A DNA stretch of 64,000 bases from an uncultured virus (IMG/VR IMGVR_UViG_3300037991_001521) (IMGVR_UViG_3300037991_001521:1-64000); one strand, 5' to 3'; positions 2,541-60,793 are shown, counted from the first letter of the stretch. The notes: generated from the sequence alone by a model not told the origin. Numbers and translations are program-made.

Positions 2541-5500
2541 TTAGTTATCAAAGTATGTACGATAGGTTTGTGAGAACCTTTCGATTGCTCCTTTGTTTTG
2601 CTCTTGCCGTTGACGTTCGACACCTTGCAGCCTAGTGACTTCATCAATGTCGTTACGCTTAGTTGCTAGATCGATTAGCTGTTTATTACGGATGGATTGC
2701 ACAAGATCAGGGCGAATGTCGAGAAGGGCTTGTTCAGCAATGAGCTGACCCTCTTTTACAACCCTGTCCATTTCTCTGTACAGTGAAGTTTTTTGTTCGT
2801 CAAGAGCATGGTCATCTAGACCAACGTCTGCACCAACAGCACGGTGTGCTCTAATTTTACCTAGAATGTACTTATATTTAGGCTTATCTAGGATCTTCTC
2901 CATTTGTTTCCAACGTTGTTGTGAGCCAAAATGACGTTGGATAAACTCGAATTCTTCTGGACTGTATTCCACAGAACCAGTAGAATCTCTCTTCAATGCG
3001 CTGAGACCTCTCCAACCGGAAGTGTTTAGTTTTTCACGCCAAGGTTCAGGTCCGTCAATCATTGGAAACGGGCTGACAGCATTGAATGCACGCATCCAGG
3101 GGTTGTCAATATGTCCAACAGGTTGTCCAGTCCAAGAGTCAATGACCATAGGAAGGTCTTTACTGACAACTGGGAACCGGCTTTGGATCTGTCCGACAAA
3201 ATCATTGTGGATGTTCTTGACAGTGCTGTCGAACATCTTAGTAACCATGTTAATGCCAGATCCCATCGGTACGTAGTTACTTACAGTGCCTGACAACAGT
3301 CGAATCATTCCAGTGTCATCACCACCAAGCATCTTGACAATTGGTTCCAAACCTGTAAGGAGAACCATGTCAGAATACATAGATGTCAAAGTCCACTGAA
3401 TTTTTCTGCCGATATTATCCATCATTGCTTCGTCAGCATCACCAGCGTAATAAGCCAGATCACCAAGCAAAGTCAGAAGTGGATCTACACCAGGAATACC
3501 TTTGTAGCTGTACCATTTACCACCAAGGTAGATAGTTTTCGGTACGTATCCATCTTGACGTTCTCTGTAACGACGTGCGGAATTGTAGTGACCAGATCCA
3601 CGAATGTTTCCAGACGCTGCAAAGCCCCACATAGATTGATAAAACAGTCCACTGAAAGCTAAACGTCCAATGTACTCCCTCTTCAGGTTTTGAAAGATTG
3701 CACGTGCATTAGGGTCTTTGTCAAAATCAACGTCGTGCTTAGCTAGTGCCTTCCTAATGTCATCATCGCTTCTTGCCCAAATTACATCACCTTGTTTTGT
3801 AATACCGGGCAGCGCAGCCAAAGGTGAGTATGATGCTTCTAACTTCAAAGCATTAGTGCTTGAAGTTGGGAAGTACATAAAGTTACGCAGGAATGGATAT
3901 TGATCAATAGCGTTGTTTGCGAGAGCAGCGGCTTTGTCGTCAAGGTTGAGTGCAATCTCACCAGCGGCATTTTTAGCTGCTTTGTCAAGCAAAACACCCC
4001 TGCTGTCAAACATGCTCTTGAAAACCTCATGCTCAGCTTCACGCAGAGCTTTTTCGTCAACGTAACCAAACTTGCTAAAAACGTTGTCGTAGGCACGAAT
4101 GCGTGCAGTCAACGTGGCAAGATACACATTGGTGCCTTGGTCAATACCAGACATACCAATCTGTGTTGCACGACCGAACCTGCTGTTGCCAAACAAATGC
4201 ATAGCCTGCGCCATACGCAGTTTCATAAGCTCGCCATACTTTCCTTCCGCTTTTAAGGTCGGTGCAAGCATGTCAAAGATCTTAGTCTTGTCGTCAGCGT
4301 GTTTTTGGAAGTCCTTACGAATGAAATCCTTAAACTCATCAGGGTTCATAAAACCCTTTTTGATAAGACTAAAGCCGTCAACTACAGCACGTTTGGCTGT
4401 TTCGTAACTGGCTGCGTAGTAATAAGCGAACCGCTCAATAGCTTTAGGGTCACCAGCCATAGCTGCAACACCATGTCCTAGACCTGCATTGATAGGTTTA
4501 CGCAACAGTTCAATCGTGTTGCCTTTGAATGCGTTGATAATTGCACGACCTGCAAGTTTGCTAGCGTACAATGTGGCTGACAAACCTTGTCCGAAGTAAG
4601 TTGCACCTTGTGTGTCACGGTTGACAATAAATGCACGTCGGAACGAAAGTTGCTTTTGTGCATACGCAAGGAGTTTTTCGAGACTATCAACTTCACCGTT
4701 AGTAAGTTCAAAAGCCTTGAACAACGGCATCATTGCTGCTGGGTTTTCACGAGCAAGCTCAGCAAGGTTTTCGCTAAATGTTTTAGCTTCTTGACTAATC
4801 CGACGACGACCTTCTTTAAATTCTTCCAAGATCGTTGCAAACTGCTCAGCATTTGTAACCCCATCTTTAGGGTCAAAGTTCTTCATTTGCAACATATTAC
4901 CTGACACGTACTGGTTCAGACGCACCTCTTCATATAGAAATGCAGCTTTTTTCAGCATTAGGTCACGTGTCATCAAGGTGTCGTTTGCATAGTCAAAACG
5001 ACGCAGACCTTCGGCTTGTGTAGCTAGCTCAGCACCTGCAGTTTGCATAGCACGAGATGACGCTGCCAAGACTTCTTCACCAATAAATTGGTTATAAAGG
5101 TCCATGTAGGCAAAGTACGCAGCACGTACCTGACCTTCCGTTGCAATCTCTTCCGCATAGTCGTCAGTTAGTTGGATCACAGAACGTTTGGTGTGCATGA
5201 AATCACGAATTTCATCCACAGAGTTTGCACTCATCATGCGCTTGTAATAAGCAATAGCGTCAGCGTCAAGCTCAGATCGCCTCATCCTAAAATTACCGAC
5301 TTTGTATTCAAAGTCACCAACTCTGTTAGCACGCTCTGCAAAGTCAACTACAAGGTCACGGGCATCTTTACCTGCACCATCTGCAGCAGCCAAAGCGTGT
5401 CGTGTAATTGCTGGTGGCGGGTCACCAACTACTTCCCCACGGTTAATACGCGCAGCTTCACCCATATTGCGGGCTTCTTGGCCTGCTTCGTCAAACTGCT

Positions 5501-13660: not shown

Positions 13661-14797
13661 TCAGAATGCGGCAGGCTTGGTAGCGGTGCCAGCAAACAGT
13701 TCCACTGCACAGGCAGGGTTCAGGTAGTCTGCGCCCATGGCGAGACGACCCAGGATCACGTCGCCTTGGTAGACCACGGAGACGTCACCGCTGGTGACCT
13801 GGACCTGAGGGCCAATAGCTTCAACGCAGCCAGCGGCTTCGCGTTGGAAGATAAGACCACAGGAGTTTGCGAATTCGGTTTCTTCACCGTACTCGTTGTT
13901 GATGCCAGTGACATCGTTAGCAGCATCTTCCACAGCTTCGCTGACAAAGGAGCCAGTGTTACCGGGGGAGGTGGTGCCAGGGTTGGTTGCAGAACCAGTT
14001 CCGTACTTGGTGCCATACTGGCTAAAGAACGGAATGTTCATGGACTTGAAGATCTTGATACCAGCAATCTCCACAATGCCCTGACCGGACTGCAGGGCAG
14101 CGCCTTGCTCGTCACGGTTGATCAGTCCGTTGTTGCCAACTTCCTGGATCAGTGCATAGTATTGACGTGGGTTCAGAACACCTACACGACCTTCTTGAGA
14201 CACACCCTTCTCATCCATCGCAGCAGCAGCGTCGAAGAAAGCGGTGGTCAGTTTCTGAGCATCGTATGCATCAGATGCGTTGGCAGTAGCACCAACACGG
14301 ATTTGGGTGCCACCCGGCTCAACGAAGTTAGACTTGGTGATAGGGGAAGCAGCACGTGCACCGCGAGTGATAGCGCGGAAGATCAGACGATCATACTTTT
14401 GTGCAAGTGCATAACCGATCTTACGTGAGATTTCAGAACGCAGATCGTAGTGGGCAAGAGTTTCATCCAGGTCATACAAAAATGCACTGGAGATGAGCAG
14501 ATCATCAACGGTGATGGTCTTCTCAGCCACCGGAGGTGCACCGTCGGAGTTACCGAGGATTGCGTTTCCGGGGGTGTGGTACTCAGCCGTGGTGCGACCA
14601 GTGTAGATGAACTGCATAGATTTGCCGTTCGTCAGCGTACGCTTCATGATCAGATCACGAGCGATAGCATTATACTGGAAGCCTTTGAACATTTCTCCAC
14701 TGAACAACTTCAGGTAGAGAGCGCGGGCGTCACCCGCAGAATTAGCCTGACCAGGACGAGTCAGACTCGTGGTCAGCGTAGAACTTTGATGTGCCAT
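13661..14797 (-). CDS. Major capsid protein (gp10), copy A
   Basis: ALYLKLFSGEMFKGF...EKTITVDDLLISSAF motif of T7-like cyanophage capsids. Confidence 0.96.
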   Translation of the reverse strand: MAHQSSTLTTSLTRPGQANSAGDARALYLKLFSGEMFKGFQYNAIARDLIMKRTLTNGKSMQFIYTGRTTAEYHTPGNAILGNSDGAPPVAEKTITVDDLLISSAFLYDLDETLAHYDLRSEISRKIGYALAQKYDRLIFRAITRGARAASPITKSNFVEPGGTQIRVGATANASDAYDAQKLTTAFFDAAAAMDEKGVSQEGRVGVLNPRQYYALIQEVGNNGLINRDEQGAALQSGQGIVEIAGIKIFKSMNIPFFSQYGTKYGTGSATNPGTTSPGNTGSFVSEAVEDAANDVTGINNEYGEETEFANSCGLIFQREAAGCVEAIGPQVQVTSGDVSVVYQGDVILGRLAMGADYLNPACAVELFAGTATKPAAF

Positions 14798-14827
14798 TGT
14801 AAGGAGTAAATAGTATTAACCAACTCC

Positions 14828-14945
14828 CAAAGCTTTGAGAAAAATTTTTTGTGGTCTATCCCACCGTCTAGACGGCTAATGGGTATCCGCGTACGGGCCA
14901 AAAGCCAATGCAAGGGAGGTCCGACTCTGAGGTGCCTCCCAAGCT
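14828..14945 (-). ncRNA. Conserved structured RNA/regulatory leader upstream of capsid (element 3), copy A
   Basis: Near-identical to 60048..60177; GGGAGG/CCTCCC hairpin, CCG-TACG-CGG hairpin, GGCT/AGCC to GGCG/CGCC covariation, palindromes. Confidence 0.7.
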
Positions 14946-14946
14946 T

Positions 14947-15099
14947 TTACAGAAGACCTTTAAGGCACTTCTTTTGTTTGCGACATTGTGGTTTCTTGTC
15001 ACCACAGTGACCACAACGATTGAAAGCTATACCGTTATCAACAGTATCAGGTACTGTTTTAGTGATAGCAGCTTTAACAACCTTAGATTGATGTGGCAT
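14947..15099 (-). CDS. Small Cys-rich protein (50 aa, CGHC...C...C), copy A
   Basis: MPHQSKVVKAAITK...FNRCGHCGDKKPQCRKQKKCLKGLL, conserved with synonymous changes at 60346..60498. Confidence 0.75.
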   Translation of the reverse strand: MPHQSKVVKAAITKTVPDTVDNGIAFNRCGHCGDKKPQCRKQKKCLKGLL

Positions 15100-15115
15100 G
15101 ATGTATCTAAATTTA

Positions 15116-15187
15116 TGTAGGCGTGGACGCTTTCCGATCATCCACTCCTTAAACCGTTCCTTCGGGCTTTACAATTGTGGAAAGCTC
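15116..15187 (-). ncRNA. Candidate pseudoknotted cis-regulatory RNA (element 2), copy A
   Basis: 72 nt with 3 differences from 60515..60586, two forming a compensatory A-U to G-C pair; 5' CUUUCC complementary to hairpin loop GGAAAG. Confidence 0.7.
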
Positions 15188-15196
15188 AGAAGATAT

Positions 15197-15313
15197 TTAG
15201 TTAGATGCGACATTGCGCTTAACAATGTAAGCAACACCACGATACTTCAAGACAATTTCTTTTTGCTTGGCTTGCTGTTCGCGGACACGTTGACGCAATT
15301 CAATTTGAGACAT
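15197..15313 (-). CDS. DUF4278-type downstream peptide (38 aa), copy A
   Basis: MSQIELRQRVREQQAKQKEIVLKYRGVAYIVKRNVASN; LxYRGVxY motif; directly 3' of the riboswitch; conserved at 60594..60707. Confidence 0.85.
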   Translation of the reverse strand: MSQIELRQRVREQQAKQKEIVLKYRGVAYIVKRNVASN

Positions 15314-15327
15314 GATGAACTTCAATA

Positions 15328-15378
15328 ACCTTACCCCCCGTTCCATGAGTAAGATGCCTGCGTCCCGAAGGATGAACG
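15328..15378 (-). promoter_or_regulatory. Glutamine-II (Downstream-peptide) riboswitch, copy A
   Basis: CGUUCA-UCC(UUCG)GGA-CGCA...stem with loop AUGGAACGGG pairing to 5' CGUUC; compensatory changes versus copy B; upstream of a YRGV peptide. Confidence 0.85.
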
Positions 15379-15390
15379 TACGGCTGAAGT

Positions 15391-15540
15391 CTATTTCTTT
15401 TTTGCAGTCTTGGCAGAACGCTTAAAGTTTGCTGCAGTTGGTGCGCCTTTTGATCCAGGCTTACGCATCTTCTCGCCACTGCCTGCAGCGATGCGCTTAC
15501 GTTTGGCGTGGATGTTAGCGTACAATCCTCGTTTAGCCAT
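15391..15540 (-). CDS. Small basic protein (49 aa, MAKRGLYANIHAKRKRI...)
   Basis: Conserved homolog at 61148..61297; start refined to ATG 15540. Confidence 0.8.
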   Translation of the reverse strand: MAKRGLYANIHAKRKRIAAGSGEKMRKPGSKGAPTAANFKRSAKTAKKK

Positions 15541-58869: not shown

Positions 58870-60015
58870 TCAGAATGCAGCGTTACCAGTAGAACCGACG
58901 GCTGCACCAGCAATCAGTTCAACACAGCAAGCAGGGTTCAGATAGTCAGCGCCCATGGCGAGACGACCCAGAAGCACGTCACCTTGGTAGACCACGGAGA
59001 CGTCACCGCTGGTGACCTGAACTTGAGGACCGATGGCTTCAACACAACCAGCACCTTCGCGCTGGAAGATCAAACCACAGGAGTTAGCGAATTCGGTTTC
59101 TTCACCGTACTCGTTGTTGATGCCAGTGACATCGTTAGCAGCATCCTCAACACTTTCACCGACAAAGGAGCCAGTGTTACCAGGAGAGGTAGTGCCAGGG
59201 TTGGTAGCAGAACCAGTACCATACTTGGTACCGTAGTTGCTGAAGAACGGAATGTTCATGGACTTGAAGATCTTGATACCAGCAATCTCCACAATGCCCT
59301 GACCAGACTGCAGAGCGGCACCCTGCTCGTCACGGTTGATCAGTCCGTTGTTGCCAACTTCCTGGATCAAGGCATAGTATTGTCGTGGGTTGAGGACCCC
59401 GACTCTGCCCTCGCTGCTGACCCCTTTTTCATCCATCGCAGCAGCGGCGTCGAAGAAAGCGGTGGTCAGCTTTTGAGCATCGTAAGCATCAGAAGCGTTA
59501 GCAGTAGCGCCAACACGAATCTGGGTGCCGCCGGGCTCAACAAAGCTAGACTTGGTAATCGGAGATGCAGCACGTGCACCACGGGTGATAGCACGGAAGA
59601 TCAGACGATCATATTTCTGGGCAAGAGCATAGCCAATCTTACGGCTGATCTCAGAGCGCAGATCGTAGTGAGACAGAGTCTCGTCAAGATCATACACGAA
59701 AGCCGAGCTGATGAGCAGGTCGTCAACCGTGATGGTCTTTTCAGCCACCGGGGGCGCACCGTCGGAGTTACCGAGGATAGCGTTTCCGGGGGTGTGGAAT
59801 TCAGCAGTAGTGCGACCCGTGTAGATGAACTGCATAGATTTGCCGTTCTTCAGGGTACGCTTCATGACCAGGTCACGAGCGATAGCATTATACTGGAATC
59901 CTTTGAACATCTCTCCAGAGAAGAGCTTCAAATAAAGAGCGCGGGCGTCTCCCGCGGAGTTAGATTGACCAGCCCTAGTTAGGGAAGTGGTCAGATCAGA
60001 AGACTGATGTGCCAT
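58870..60015 (-). CDS. Major capsid protein (gp10), copy B
   Basis: Highly similar to 13661..14797. Confidence 0.96.
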   Translation of the reverse strand: MAHQSSDLTTSLTRAGQSNSAGDARALYLKLFSGEMFKGFQYNAIARDLVMKRTLKNGKSMQFIYTGRTTAEFHTPGNAILGNSDGAPPVAEKTITVDDLLISSAFVYDLDETLSHYDLRSEISRKIGYALAQKYDRLIFRAITRGARAASPITKSSFVEPGGTQIRVGATANASDAYDAQKLTTAFFDAAAAMDEKGVSSEGRVGVLNPRQYYALIQEVGNNGLINRDEQGAALQSGQGIVEIAGIKIFKSMNIPFFSNYGTKYGTGSATNPGTTSPGNTGSFVGESVEDAANDVTGINNEYGEETEFANSCGLIFQREGAGCVEAIGPQVQVTSGDVSVVYQGDVLLGRLAMGADYLNPACCVELIAGAAVGSTGNAAF

Positions 60016-60047
60016 TTGTTAGGTACGAAATAAGTGTATAAGCAGTC

Positions 60048-60177
60048 TCCAAACGTTTGGAAAGGCAATGTGCCAAAATTTTTTGTGGTCTATCCCACCG
60101 TCATGACGGCGAAGGGTATCCGCGTACGGGCCAACGCCAATGCAAGGGAGGTCCGACTCTGAGGTGCCTCCCAAGCT
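60048..60177 (-). ncRNA. Capsid-leader structured element 3, copy B
   Basis: See copy A; has an extra small GGCA-CAT-TGCC hairpin insertion. Confidence 0.7.
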
Positions 60178-60345: not shown

Positions 60346-60498
60346 TCAGAGGAGCCCTTTAAGACACTTTTTTTGTTTGCGACATTGTGGCTTTTTGTTA
60401 CCACAGTGACCACAGCGATTGAAAACAATACTGTTATCTACAGACACAGGGTCCATCTTTGTAACAGCAGCTTTGACAACTTTAGATTGATGTGGCAT
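60346..60498 (-). CDS. Small Cys-rich protein, copy B
   Basis: Homolog of 14947..15099. Confidence 0.75.
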   Translation of the reverse strand: MPHQSKVVKAAVTKMDPVSVDNSIVFNRCGHCGNKKPQCRKQKKCLKGLL

Positions 60499-60514
60499 AA
60501 TGTATTTTATTGTG

Positions 60515-60586
60515 TGTAGGCGTGGGCGCTTTCCGAACACCCACTCCTTAAACCGTTCCTTCGGGCTTTACAATTGTGGAAAGCTC
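60515..60586 (-). ncRNA. Candidate pseudoknotted RNA element 2, copy B
   Basis: See copy A. Confidence 0.7.
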
Positions 60587-60593
60587 TTTGTAT

Positions 60594-60722: not shown

Positions 60723-60777
60723 AACCTACCCCCCGTTCCATGAGTAGGTTGCCTGCGTCCCGATAACGGGATGAACG
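60723..60777 (-). promoter_or_regulatory. Glutamine-II (Downstream-peptide) riboswitch, copy B
   Basis: CGUUCA-UCCCG(UUAU)CGGGA-CGCAGGC-AACCUACUC-AUGGAACGGG-GGGUAGGUU. Confidence 0.85.
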
Positions 60778-60793
60778 TACGGCCTGAGTCTAA

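What the first reader, a model, noticed from the sequence alone, without database searches (positions are those of the whole stretch)
14828..14945. Capsid leader with perfect palindromes whose centres swap but stay self-complementary
Seen: CCGTC-TA-GACGG (A 14864-14875) versus CCGTC-AT-GACGG (B 60098-60109), and CAAA-GC-TTTG (A 14828-14837) versus TCCAAA-CG-TTTGGA (B 60048-60061). Both central dinucleotides changed and both palindromes remained perfect. Also present: AAAATTTT, an invariant GGGAGG(CACCTCAGAGTCGGA)CCTCCC hairpin, GGCT/AGCC to GGCG/CGCC covariation, and ACAATTGT in element 2. Inference: selection for self-complementarity through the centre suggests intermolecular RNA pairing (kissing or dimerisation, as in retroviral DIS or oligomeric phage RNAs), possibly strain-specific. 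Operators for a dimeric protein are the alternative. Two swaps from two sequences is only suggestive.
Basis: partly seen in the sequence, partly recalled or inferred. Interest (0 to 1): 0.75.

Follow-up and report, generated by a model that had tools for sequence, protein, structure and literature searches.

The report
Self-complementary RNA leader of cyanophage capsid gene
The untranslated stretch in front of the capsid gene of marine T7-like cyanophages is a conserved folded RNA holding two short segments that evolution keeps perfectly self-complementary right through their centres, which suggests that copies of this message pair with each other.

Summary
The window holds two diverged T7-like cyanopodovirus capsid modules on the minus strand. 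The finding is the 5' leader of the capsid mRNA.

- **Pal2:** in 142 distinct homologous leaders, the longest helix 12-70 nt before the AUG has no loop in 137. The other 5 hold a shorter perfect palindrome there. There are 48-55 sequence types and 9 centre tetranucleotides in that tally, none non-palindromic.
- **Pal1:** loop-less and self-complementary in 101 of 107 distinct cores.
- **RNA level:** in the Syn5 clade, 10 of 13 Pal1 types contain G.U wobbles, so they are RNA palindromes and not DNA palindromes.
- **Surrounding structure:** a covariation-supported RNA made of hairpin H1 or a tRNA/tRNA-like element, a bulged hairpin capped by UACG, and a GAUAGA-loop hairpin. It matches no Rfam family and was not found as a host chromosomal element in the genomes searched.

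Pairing between two leader copies is the simplest explanation, because adjacent central bases cannot pair within one strand. It is inferred, not shown. A DNA operator, a terminator, a phage promoter and chance are disfavoured. I rate it a new variant of a known kind, of fairly high interest.

The parts
14910..14944 (-). H1 hairpin, copy A. The stem GGGAGG/CCTCCC has outer GC pairs and a conserved 15-nt loop CACCTCAGAGTCGGA. In relatives this place holds a tRNA-Gly or a tRNA-like acceptor plus T-arm hairpin.
   Evidence: 38 distinct 7-bp stems with 239 of 266 cells Watson-Crick; replacement by tRNA or tRNA-like elements
14874..14906 (-). P1/P2 hairpin, copy A. An 8-9 position lower helix carries a UU/UU mismatch. 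It is followed by an asymmetric internal loop (C versus AYAC) and a 3-bp upper stem capped by UACG.
   Evidence: 11 pairs, 7 of them with changes on both sides. The whole model has 89.5% of cells paired versus 36-54% when partners are slid, and 0 of 500 shuffles reach the covariation score.
14864..14875 (-). Pal1, copy A: CCGTCTAGACGG, a loop-less self-complementary segment. Its 5' CC is shared with the P1 3' strand and its 3' G with P4.
14851..14864 (-). P4 hairpin, copy A: GTGG-GATAGA-CCAC.
   Evidence: 4 pairs, 3 of them with changes on both sides, 100% of cells paired
14840..14850 (-). A-run followed by T-run (A6T5). It is not under palindrome constraint.
14824..14841 (-). Pal2, copy A. 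The RNA-level palindrome is UUCUCAAAGCUUUGGGAG. The Watson-Crick core CAAAGCTTTG lies at 14828-14837, with its centre 35 nt before the AUG.
14803..14828 (-). P5, a possible alternative hairpin GGGAGU...ACUCC that shares the purine-rich 3' arm of Pal2. It was seen in many but not all Pal2 types.
   Evidence: judged by eye, no formal covariation count
13661..14797 (-). Major capsid protein gene, copy A (378 aa).
60142..60176 (-). H1 hairpin, copy B.
60108..60138 (-). P1/P2 hairpin, copy B (GGCG.../...CGCC).
60096..60111 (-). Pal1, copy B. The RNA-level palindrome is CGCCGUCAUGACGGUG. The Watson-Crick core CCGTCATGACGG lies at 60098-60109.
60085..60098 (-). P4 hairpin, copy B.
60064..60074 (-). 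Extra ordinary hairpin GGCA-CAU-UGCC, found in copy B and its relatives only. Its odd-length loop varies freely (CAT, CAC, CAA, ACAAC), so it serves as an internal control.
   Evidence: read by eye
60046..60063 (-). Pal2, copy B. The RNA-level palindrome is UUUCCAAACGUUUGGAGA. The Watson-Crick core TCCAAACGTTTGGA lies at 60048-60061.
58870..60015 (-). Major capsid protein gene, copy B (381 aa).

Best explanation
**What it is.** The stretch is the 5' untranslated leader of the major-capsid mRNA of marine T7-like cyanophages. It is a conserved multi-helix RNA read on the gene-sense strand.

**Shown.**
- Three helices (H1, P1/P2, P4) are supported by compensatory changes.
- Two segments, Pal1 between P1 and P4 and Pal2 about 35 nt before the AUG, change sequence freely. 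They stay fully self-complementary by RNA pairing rules, including the two central neighbouring bases.
- The arms of Pal1 overlap P1 and P4. The 3' arm of Pal2 overlaps a possible downstream hairpin, P5.

**Inferred.**
- Neighbouring bases cannot pair within one strand, and a hairpin leaves 3-4 central bases free. The constraint is therefore most simply explained by pairing of each segment with the same segment of a second leader molecule. This would be a homodimer or a hairpin-to-duplex switch.
- The competing intramolecular helices would decide whether the segment is exposed.
- These phages appear to make very long polycistronic transcripts. The whole module probably sets the level of the capsid message after transcription. 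A cut would occur at the tRNA-like element or H1. P1/P2 would then act as a protective 5' hairpin. Self-pairing would shield or tune the AU-rich, Shine-Dalgarno-less initiation region.
For: **Conservation**
- The core is 84-87% identical in non-coding DNA of cultured cyanopodoviruses.
- At least 120 IMG/VR loci carry its exact 17-mer.
- It is present in P-SSP7, NATL1A-7 and, in diverged form, Syn5.

**Structure (68 sequences)**
- 10 of 15 pairs changed on both sides.
- 89.5% of cells are paired, versus 36-54% in slid controls.
- No shuffle of 500 reached the covariation score.
- H1 has 38 distinct stems with 239 of 266 cells Watson-Crick.

**Pal2**
- 137 of 142 distinct leaders have a zero-loop longest helix, and the other 5 have shorter perfect palindromes.
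- No inverted repeat of 5+5 or more was found around a non-complementary centre other than A/T runs.
- CG and GC centres alternate in 3 contexts that are identical over 8 nt per side.

**Pal1**
- 101 of 107 cores are loop-less palindromes.
- Syn5-clade types keep a self-complementary centre while carrying G.U wobbles in 10 of 13 types.

**RNA sense strand**
- All 30 internal wobbles are U.G with U on the 5' arm. Only 9 appear if A.C is allowed instead.

**Hairpin insufficiency**
- 15 of 48 Pal2 types have a predicted hairpin energy above -1 kcal/mol.
- Self-duplex energies have a median of -21 kcal/mol.
- Cofolding keeps P1/P2 and P4 intact and pairs the central 8 nt of Pal1 between molecules (L010 core).

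**Internal control**
- A neighbouring hairpin has a freely varying, non-palindromic loop.

**Context**
- Syn5 RNA polymerase uses one promoter for more than 37 kb (PMC3950665, section 12).
- One RNA-library contig bridges 14528-14875.
Against: - No experiment or read-level data shows two molecules paired. Cofold energies favour a dimer for any palindrome, so they do not discriminate.
- Pal1 is not palindromic in 6 of 107 main-clade cores (4 types), so full self-complementarity is not indispensable there.
- Pal2 cores are also perfect DNA palindromes, so a DNA-level reading is not excluded for Pal2.
- Tetraloop-sized centres are sterically poor for kissing. A dimer would need strand exchange, and hairpins form faster inside cells.
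- The sequences are related. The counts are of distinct sequences, not of independent events.
- The processing and stability part rests on position and analogy only.
Confidence: 0.4

Rival explanations
1. Pal1 and Pal2 are ordinary intramolecular hairpins of a structured leader. Their four central bases are kept self-complementary for a reason other than pairing between molecules. One option is a mutational mechanism such as template switching across a short inverted repeat, which copies one arm from the other through the tip. Another is an unrecognised structural preference.
For: - RNAfold places a hairpin at Pal2 in copy B and at Pal1 in L023.
- The arms tolerate G.U as ordinary stems do.
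- 6 of 107 cores have a looped or no helix at Pal1 and evidently persist.
- Centre swaps need two changes at once, which a templated event would deliver in one step.
Against: - Hairpins a few nucleotides away keep non-palindromic loops: UACG in P2b, GAUAGA in P4, 15 nt in H1. The extra hairpin in B-type leaders has a freely varying 3-5 nt loop. No general mutational force therefore makes loops palindromic here.
- 15 of 48 Pal2 types are not stable as hairpins.
- The strictness gradient is the reverse of a hairpin's. Pairing is Watson-Crick only at the centre, with wobbles only 4-8 positions out.
Confidence: 0.25
2. The palindromes are double-stranded DNA sites for a two-fold symmetric protein, such as a regulator, nuclease or methylase, placed in front of the capsid gene.
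For: - Pal2 Watson-Crick cores are exact DNA palindromes of 6-16 bp, centred at a fairly fixed -31 to -45 from the ATG.
- All centres are restriction-site-like tetranucleotides.
Against: - There are 48 distinct Pal2 types with no conserved half-site and variable length.
- 10 of 13 Syn5-clade Pal1 types are not DNA palindromes.
- Wobble extensions are strand-specific: 30 U.G versus 9 A.C.
- The only recognised transcription factor of P-SSP7, pMarR, has homologues in 7 of 20 cyanopodoviruses (PMC9692554, passages). The palindromes were in every leader examined.
- Palindromes are otherwise somewhat depleted in the window: 44 found versus 64 expected.
Confidence: 0.08
3. The loop-less helices are substrates of a dimeric double-strand RNase such as host RNase III. 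In this reading they serve as processing sites that cut the capsid message out of the polycistron, as RNase III sites do in T7.
For: - T7-like phages process late transcripts at hairpins (recalled knowledge).
- Transcripts are long polycistrons.
- An intermolecular 12-16 bp duplex would have exact two-fold symmetry.
Against: - As hairpins the stems are only 2-8 bp, far shorter than known RNase III substrates.
- No sequence or structure likeness to the T7 gene 10 region was found.
- This reading still needs the intermolecular duplex, so it is more a downstream consequence of the best explanation than a true rival.
Confidence: 0.1
4. The palindromes are a chance coincidence or an assembly artefact.
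For: Single 10-14 nt palindromes are expected about once per kb. The window's record looks like a chimeric concatemer.
Against: The same feature is found at the same place in 142 distinct leaders and in finished genomes of cultured phages (P-SSP7, NATL1A-7, Syn5).
Confidence: 0.01

Closest known systems
Retroviral dimerisation initiation sites (HIV-1 DIS; MoMuLV GACG loops), as reviewed in PMC7357161 (passages read)
   Same: - A short self-complementary RNA segment keeps its palindromy while its letters differ between lineages.
- The palindrome can be hidden by an alternative intramolecular helix.
- An extended duplex through the palindrome is possible.
   Different: - In retroviruses the palindrome sits in an open 4-9 nt loop with unpaired flanks, on a genome RNA that is packaged as a dimer.
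- Here the palindrome is continuous with its stem and has no loop at all.
- There are two such sites in an mRNA leader of a dsDNA phage.
- Dimerisation has not been shown.
oskar mRNA palindromic loop (PMC7357161, passages)
   Same: An mRNA, not a genome, carries a palindromic element that mediates homodimerisation.
   Different: It is a eukaryotic 3' UTR with a six-nucleotide loop palindrome flanked by pyrimidines, and it serves localisation.
Guanidine-II riboswitch (mini-ykkC), PMC7357161 passages
   Same: Two small hairpins lie 7-40 nt apart in a 5' leader. Their tetraloops have a central CG and pair loop to loop. ACGT is the commonest Pal2 centre, in 21 of the 50 zero-loop types tallied.
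   Different: Its loops are a conserved ACGR and are not fully palindromic. No Rfam family, mini-ykkC included, matched the leader even at E up to 10. Here the loops vary over at least 9 tetranucleotides.
T7 gene 10 leader and T7 RNase III processing sites
   Same: Both belong to the same phage family and the same gene, the most highly expressed late gene. Both have a structured leader in front of it.
   Different: T7 has its own promoter phi10 and a Shine-Dalgarno site directly upstream, and only a 6-nt TCTAGA. The cyanophage leader has no promoter match, no Shine-Dalgarno sequence and no sequence homology beyond a chance-level 8-mer.
tRNA punctuation of polycistronic transcripts (mitochondria; recalled)
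   Same: A tRNA-Gly or a tRNA-like acceptor plus T-arm hairpin abuts the first helix of the leader by 1-3 nt. RNase P/Z-type cuts could therefore free the capsid message.
   Different: Processing is untested. The window's own copies carry hairpin H1 instead of a tRNA.
Candidate structured RNAs upstream of PHA00201 capsid genes in the IMG/VR catalogue of PMC10690425 (DNAVirus_3706, _5397 and three more)
   Same: These are marine Caudoviricetes candidates of 43-80 nt within 25 bp of T7-type capsid genes (supplement tables).
   Different: Their sequences could not be read because the supplement files were too large. Overlap is therefore unknown. Their length and position would fit only the 3' part of this leader, and no function or palindrome rule is described in the passages read.

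Membership tests
DIS-type RNA dimerisation element | Self-complementary sequence kept palindromic while its letters vary between lineages | tested here: met
   Pal2 in 142 of 142 leaders (137 as the longest helix); Pal1 in 101 of 107; Syn5 clade also
DIS-type RNA dimerisation element | Palindrome displayed in an open hairpin loop with unpaired flanking bases | tested here: not met
   The palindromes run straight into their stems with zero loop
DIS-type RNA dimerisation element | Alternative intramolecular pairing that can hide the palindrome | tested here: inconclusive
   The arms of Pal1 overlap the covariation-supported P1 and P4 in both clades. No test shows that this acts as a switch.
DIS-type RNA dimerisation element | Physical dimer of the RNA | not testable with these tools
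   Only cofold energies are available, and these favour any palindrome.
Guanidine-II riboswitch (mini-ykkC) or any Rfam 15 family | Match to the family covariance model | tested here: not met
   cmscan at gathering score on the whole window, and at E up to 10 on 14700-15450, gave no relevant hit on the leader
Intrinsic terminator or attenuator | G+C-rich hairpin followed at once by a U tract | tested here: not met
   No terminator-like site in either leader. The one site found, at 59940-59956, lies inside the capsid gene.
Syn5-type single-subunit RNA polymerase promoter | Match to ATTGGGCACCCGTAA and recurrence within a genome | tested here: not met
   The Syn5 promoter occurs at 4929 and 44797 in Syn5, not before its capsid gene. 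The window has one chance-level 3-mismatch hit elsewhere. The core 17-mer occurs once per genome copy.
DNA operator of a dimeric regulator | Conserved half-sites at fixed spacing, symmetric at the DNA level | tested here: not met
   48 Pal2 types of 6-16 bp without a shared half-site. 10 of 13 Syn5-clade Pal1 types are not DNA palindromes.
tRNA (element 5' of the core) | Cloverleaf found by ARAGORN | tested here: not met
   None in the window. tRNA-Gly(UCC) was found in 3 of 202 loci. 37 other distinct upstream types have only a T-arm-like hairpin.
Structured cis-acting mRNA leader (generic) | Compensatory base changes on the gene-sense strand, a fixed position before one gene, and presence in RNA libraries | tested here: met
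   One RNA-library contig bridges the leader and the coding region (weak).

The most novel reading that the evidence does not exclude
Capsid messages of marine T7-like cyanophages self-associate through two independent loop-less palindromes into dimers or chains. This would be a DIS-like system in the mRNA of a dsDNA phage. The variable centres would act as lineage-specific addresses, so that co-infecting relatives' messages pair only with their own kind. Overlapping helices (P1, P4, P5) would switch the leader between a closed monomer and an open, pairing-competent form. That switch would couple message concentration to its stability or translation late in infection.
Probability: 0.3. Interest if true: 0.85.

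Novelty: new variant of a known kind. Interest (0 to 1): 0.72.

Why it matters
T7-like cyanophages are among the most abundant viruses of the ocean's main primary producers. At least one of them, Syn5, transcribes more than 37 kb from a single promoter. How the capsid protein is then made in several-hundred-fold excess over its neighbours is an open question.

This leader is a conserved, phage-specific RNA placed exactly where that control must act, and it is present in the laboratory models P-SSP7 and Syn5. Its evolutionary signature is complementarity between adjacent central bases, kept through many sequence replacements. That signature is rare. Outside retroviruses and a few eukaryotic mRNAs it has not been tied to a function.

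If the pairing between molecules is real, it would be a new way for a DNA phage to regulate a message. It would also be a compact natural RNA self-assembly module. If it is not real, the cause of the palindromy still needs an explanation.

Tried and rejected
1. **Phage RNA polymerase promoter.**
   - The core resembles the Syn5 promoter in ATTGG...CCCGTA. The motif was first recalled and then confirmed in PMC3950665.
   - In Syn5 the promoter lies elsewhere. Syn5's own capsid leader carries a diverged core that does not match the promoter.
   - The window has no recurrence.

2. **Homology to the T7 gene 10 leader.** Only a shared 8-mer and a 6-nt TCTAGA were found, which I judged chance level.

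3. **Host origin.**
   - The exact core pattern hits 7 'genome' contigs. All are phage-like DNA in metagenome bins or a single-cell assembly.
   - Model R1 gives 2 strong hits, one of them that single-cell contig and the other presumed to be the same kind (not inspected). It also gives 3 chance-level hits in 151 genomes of that family.
   - The core was therefore not found as a host chromosomal element in those searched.

4. **Pseudoknot between the Pal1 5' half and the P4 loop (UAGA).** P4 stays GAUAGA when Pal1 changes to GUCAUGAC, so there is no covariation (by eye).

5. **RNAalifold on the raw MAFFT alignment A1.** It gave only 7 pairs because the P1 register is broken by indels. I therefore used the 68-sequence subset A2 (68 of 107 rows, those without indels and with GTCT or GTCA at Pal1).

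6. **Expression data.**
   - Only assembled contigs of RNA libraries were available.
   - They cover the leader, and one bridges it to the coding region.
   - They cannot show ends, strand or level. The depth peak on the core reflects many relatives mapping there.

7. **Sigma-70 promoter in the leader on the gene strand.** None was found.

8. **Model R1 on Syn5-clade loci.** It reaches only E 0.02-0.8. Homology of that clade's leader rests on shared architecture read by eye.

9. **Earlier notes of this scan.** Nothing was on record.

10. **Literature.**
    - Searches were 'cyanopodovirus + palindrom', 'T7-like cyanophage/capsid/upstream/stem-loop', 'cyanophage/structured RNA/intergenic/covariation/capsid', 'P-SSP7/transcription start site/capsid/RNase E' and 'self-complementary/palindromic loop/mRNA dimerization/bacteriophage'.
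    - None found a description of this leader.
    - Two papers that might bear on it (PMC3561573, PMC4937493) are not held.

Full report
**What the window is**

All genes lie on the minus strand. The window holds two diverged copies of a T7-like portal-scaffold-capsid-tail block 45.2 kb apart. The capsid genes are 13661-14797 (copy A) and 58870-60015 (copy B). The record is a single 65,974-bp IMG/VR virus contig. The nearest named record is a Mediterranean fosmid phage (96% over the leader). The next are Synechococcus and Prochlorococcus podoviruses. The finding is the non-coding stretch between the previous gene's stop codon and the capsid ATG, read on the minus strand.

**Check of the observation**

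Taken alone they are not remarkable. The window has 44 perfect palindromes of 10 nt or more against 63.9 expected from shuffles. But three lie within 48 nt in copy A. Of 56 ORFs, only the two capsid genes have such a cluster upstream.

**Homologs**

- The middle of the leader is 84-87% identical in unannotated DNA of about 30 cultured cyanopodoviruses.
- A leader-blind sample was drawn with the capsid protein: 599 relatives, of which the best 80 were kept.
- A third sample was drawn with the Syn5 capsid: 50 loci.
- From the window plus loci L002-L202, 142 distinct leaders passed my anchor and start-codon filters. The rest were duplicates, truncated or failed the anchor, and were not examined further.

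**Anatomy (copy A coordinates)**

| Element | Coordinates | Evidence |
|---|---|---|
| H1 | 14910-14944 | 7-bp stem, 38 distinct stem versions, 239 of 266 cells Watson-Crick, conserved 15-nt loop |
| P1/P2 | 14874-14906 | see below |
| Pal1 | 14864-14875 | see below |
| P4 | 14851-14864 | GUGG-GAUAGA-CCAC |
| A-run/T-run | 14840-14850 | not constrained |
| Pal2 | 14824-14841 | see below |
| P5 (possible hairpin) | 14803-14828 | by eye only |
| AUG | 14797 | |

In 37 of 129 distinct upstream types, H1 is replaced by a hairpin with a T-loop-like 7-nt loop and an acceptor-like stem. In 3 of 202 loci a complete tRNA-Gly(UCC) ends 0-1 nt before P1.

P1/P2 is a lower helix of 8-9 positions with a central UU/UU mismatch that becomes Watson-Crick in other lineages. 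Above it sit an asymmetric internal loop (C opposite AYAC) and a 3-4 bp stem capped by UACG.

I counted pairs on a 68-sequence subset. These were 68 of 107 distinct cores, chosen because they have no indels. The model P1/P2 + P4 gave:
- 10 of 15 pairs changed on both sides;
- 89.5% of cells paired, versus 36-54% when partners are slid;
- no shuffle of 500 reaching the covariation score.

No Rfam 15 family matches the leader, even at E up to 10. A covariance model of the core finds it in P-SSP7 and NATL1A-7. In 151 genomes of the host family, it gives strong hits only on one phage-like contig of a single-cell assembly and one further contig presumed alike.

**The palindromes**

*Pal2.* I searched positions -70 to -12 for the longest contiguous helix under RNA rules, allowing loops of 0-10 nt.
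- 137 of 142 leaders give loop 0.
- In the other five a shorter perfect palindrome (for example GTGCAC, GCATGC, GATCGATC) sits at the expected place and is merely outscored by an A/T-rich helix.
- There are 48-55 distinct versions, depending on how wobble ends are trimmed.
- That tally shows nine centre tetranucleotides (ACGT, AGCT, TCGA, GATC, GTAC, CCGG, GCGC, CATG, CGCG), plus TGCA among the five shorter palindromes, and 14 centre hexamers.
- None has a non-complementary centre.
- The centre lies 31-45 nt before the ATG in 141 of 142.
- In three contexts identical over 8 nt on each side, both CG and GC centres occur. AT/CG and TA/AT alternations occur in two more contexts at 5 nt.

*Pal1.*
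- 101 of 107 distinct main-clade cores have a loop-less helix of 8-24 nt.
- Six cores (four types) do not.
- In P-SSP7 both sites are present: GCCGUCUAGACGGU and UUUACGUACGUAGA.
- In the Syn5 clade the sequences are quite different but the rule holds. Pal1 is AGGUGCUAGCGCCU, AGGUACCGGUGCCU, GGGUGCAUGCGCCC, GGGUGCGCGUGCCC and so on. Pal2 is GUUCUAGAAC, GUUCAUGAAC, GAAUCGAUUC, CUACCGGUAG and so on.
- A rearranged subclade keeps two palindromes at other positions in the leader.
- A pelagiphage and T7 do not show the feature.

**At what level the constraint acts**

- Ten of 13 Syn5-clade Pal1 types contain G.U pairs, so they are not DNA palindromes.
- In main-clade Pal2, allowing G.U lengthens the helices from a mean half-length of 6.42 to 7.37. 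Allowing A.C, the wobble of the opposite strand, gives only 6.51.
- All 30 internal wobbles have U on the 5' arm and G on the 3' arm, and all lie 4-8 positions from the centre.
- So the pairing is RNA pairing on the sense strand. It is strictest at the centre and laxest at the ends. That is the pattern of a continuous duplex and the reverse of a hairpin, whose centre is a loop.
- Fifteen of 48 Pal2 types have a predicted hairpin energy above -1 kcal/mol, and 12 of them have none at all. Their self-duplexes are predicted at -12 to -18 kcal/mol, apart from one A/T-run artefact.
- A neighbouring hairpin in B-type leaders (GGCA-CAU-UGCC at 60064-60074) has an ordinary loop that varies freely. This argues against a general mutational drive towards palindromic loops.
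- Under a free-tetraloop model each new centre has a 1 in 16 chance of being self-complementary. Eight or more changes in Pal2 alone put the joint chance below about 1e-9. This is my own arithmetic and ignores relatedness.

**How it most likely works**

*Shown:* a conserved folded leader, and two RNA segments under selection for complete self-complementarity. The Pal1 arms overlap the proven helices P1 and P4 in both clades.

*Inferred:*
- Each segment pairs with its twin on a second leader molecule.
- P1/P4 (and possibly P5 for Pal2) compete with this, so the leader could switch between a closed monomer and a pairing form.
- Cofolding of the core keeps P1/P2 and P4 intact and joins two molecules through the central 8 nt of Pal1. 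Such energies favour any palindrome and prove nothing.

*Inferred from context:*
- Syn5 RNA polymerase transcribes more than 37 kb from one promoter (PMC3950665, section 12).
- Host RNase E is induced during P-SSP7 infection, and phage messages are protected from it by duplex formation (PMC9692554, passages).
- The leader has no Shine-Dalgarno sequence, no gene-strand promoter and no terminator.
- The module therefore probably acts after transcription. A cut would occur at the tRNA-like element or H1. A 5' hairpin (P1/P2) would guard the new end. Self-pairing would shield or tune the initiation region.
- I hold the intermolecular step at about 0.4.

**Rivals**

- Ordinary hairpins with palindromic loops for another cause: 0.25.
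- A DNA site for a symmetric protein: 0.08, and only tenable for Pal2.
- Substrates of a dimeric RNase: 0.1, and this still needs the duplex.
- Chance or artefact: 0.01.

**Comparison with what is known**

The closest analogue in logic is the retroviral dimerisation site. There, lineage-specific palindromes are hidden or exposed by alternative pairing (PMC7357161, passages). One defining feature, display in an open loop, is not met. The oskar mRNA loop palindrome and the guanidine-II riboswitch share single traits. A large IMG/VR catalogue lists five candidate RNAs just upstream of T7-type capsid genes (PMC10690425, passages and supplement tables). Their sequences could not be read, so overlap with the 3' part of this leader is possible and unchecked. 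My five text searches found no description of this leader, and two possibly relevant papers are not held.

**Verdict**

I rate it a new variant of a known kind, with interest 0.72.

Noticed in passing
window 1-64000 (record of 65,974 bp): The record carries two diverged copies of the structural block 45.2 kb apart (capsids at 13661-14797 and 58870-60015). It therefore looks like a chimeric concatemer assembly of two related phages rather than one genome.
   Followed up: partly
window 15329-15381 (-) and 60724-60780 (-): Glutamine-II riboswitch aptamers (47 and 59.5 bits) lie in front of a small ORF containing KYRGVAY. The same riboswitch-peptide pair sits just upstream of the tRNA-like element and core in P-SSP7 (PSSP7_028) and many IMG/VR loci. 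Nitrogen status may thus feed into this region.
   Followed up: partly
window about 15120-15190 (-) and 60520-60590 (-); L122 19800-19840: A second conserved non-coding block contains ACAATTGT and GGAACGGTTTAAGGAG. It is followed by a hairpin that covaries between A and B (GTGGA..TCCAC versus GTGGG..CCCAC). The GGAACGGTTTAAGGA part recurs in Syn5 and relatives. A PhotoRC-I hit on the opposite strand is below threshold, at 26 bits against 45.
   Followed up: no
loci L010, L026, L042, L082, L096 and others; L001 1433-1503: Directly 5' of the core, many relatives carry a degenerate tRNA. It has an acceptor-like stem plus a T-arm with loop TTCRANT or TGCAANN. Three loci carry a full tRNA-Gly(UCC). 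The series suggests that H1 and the tRNA-like elements are interchangeable processing signals.
   Followed up: partly
window 14920-14934 (-) and the same loop in copy B: The conserved H1 loop begins with CACCUC, the same letters as the 3' end of 16S rRNA (recalled, not checked). It is followed by AGAG or GGAG. It might bind a Shine-Dalgarno-like stretch or a protein.
   Followed up: no
window 60473-60501 (+); 15074-15102 (+): Sigma-70-like sites lie on the antisense strand inside the small Cys-rich ORF. They read TTGACA-17-CATAAT (11 of 12, with TG) in B and score 9 of 12 in A. These are possible antisense promoters.
   Followed up: no
window 14947-15141 (-); 60346-60540 (-): A 64-aa basic ORF with CxxC...C..C spacing ends a few bases before H1. 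It is absent from relatives that carry a tRNA-like element there.
   Followed up: no
L260-L266 (genome contigs): The phage core occurs in metagenome bins labelled Dehalococcoidia, Rubrivivax, Porticoccaceae, Neomarinimicrobiota and Gammaproteobacteria. It also occurs in a 43-kb contig of a Prochlorococcus single-cell assembly. This is likely phage DNA mis-binned or from an infected cell.
   Followed up: no
L034 and L043 (IMG/VR): At the Pal1 position these two lineages have 22- and 24-nt RNA palindromes. They swallow the P1 3' strand and the P4 5' strand, which is the extreme form of the overlap seen everywhere.
   Followed up: no
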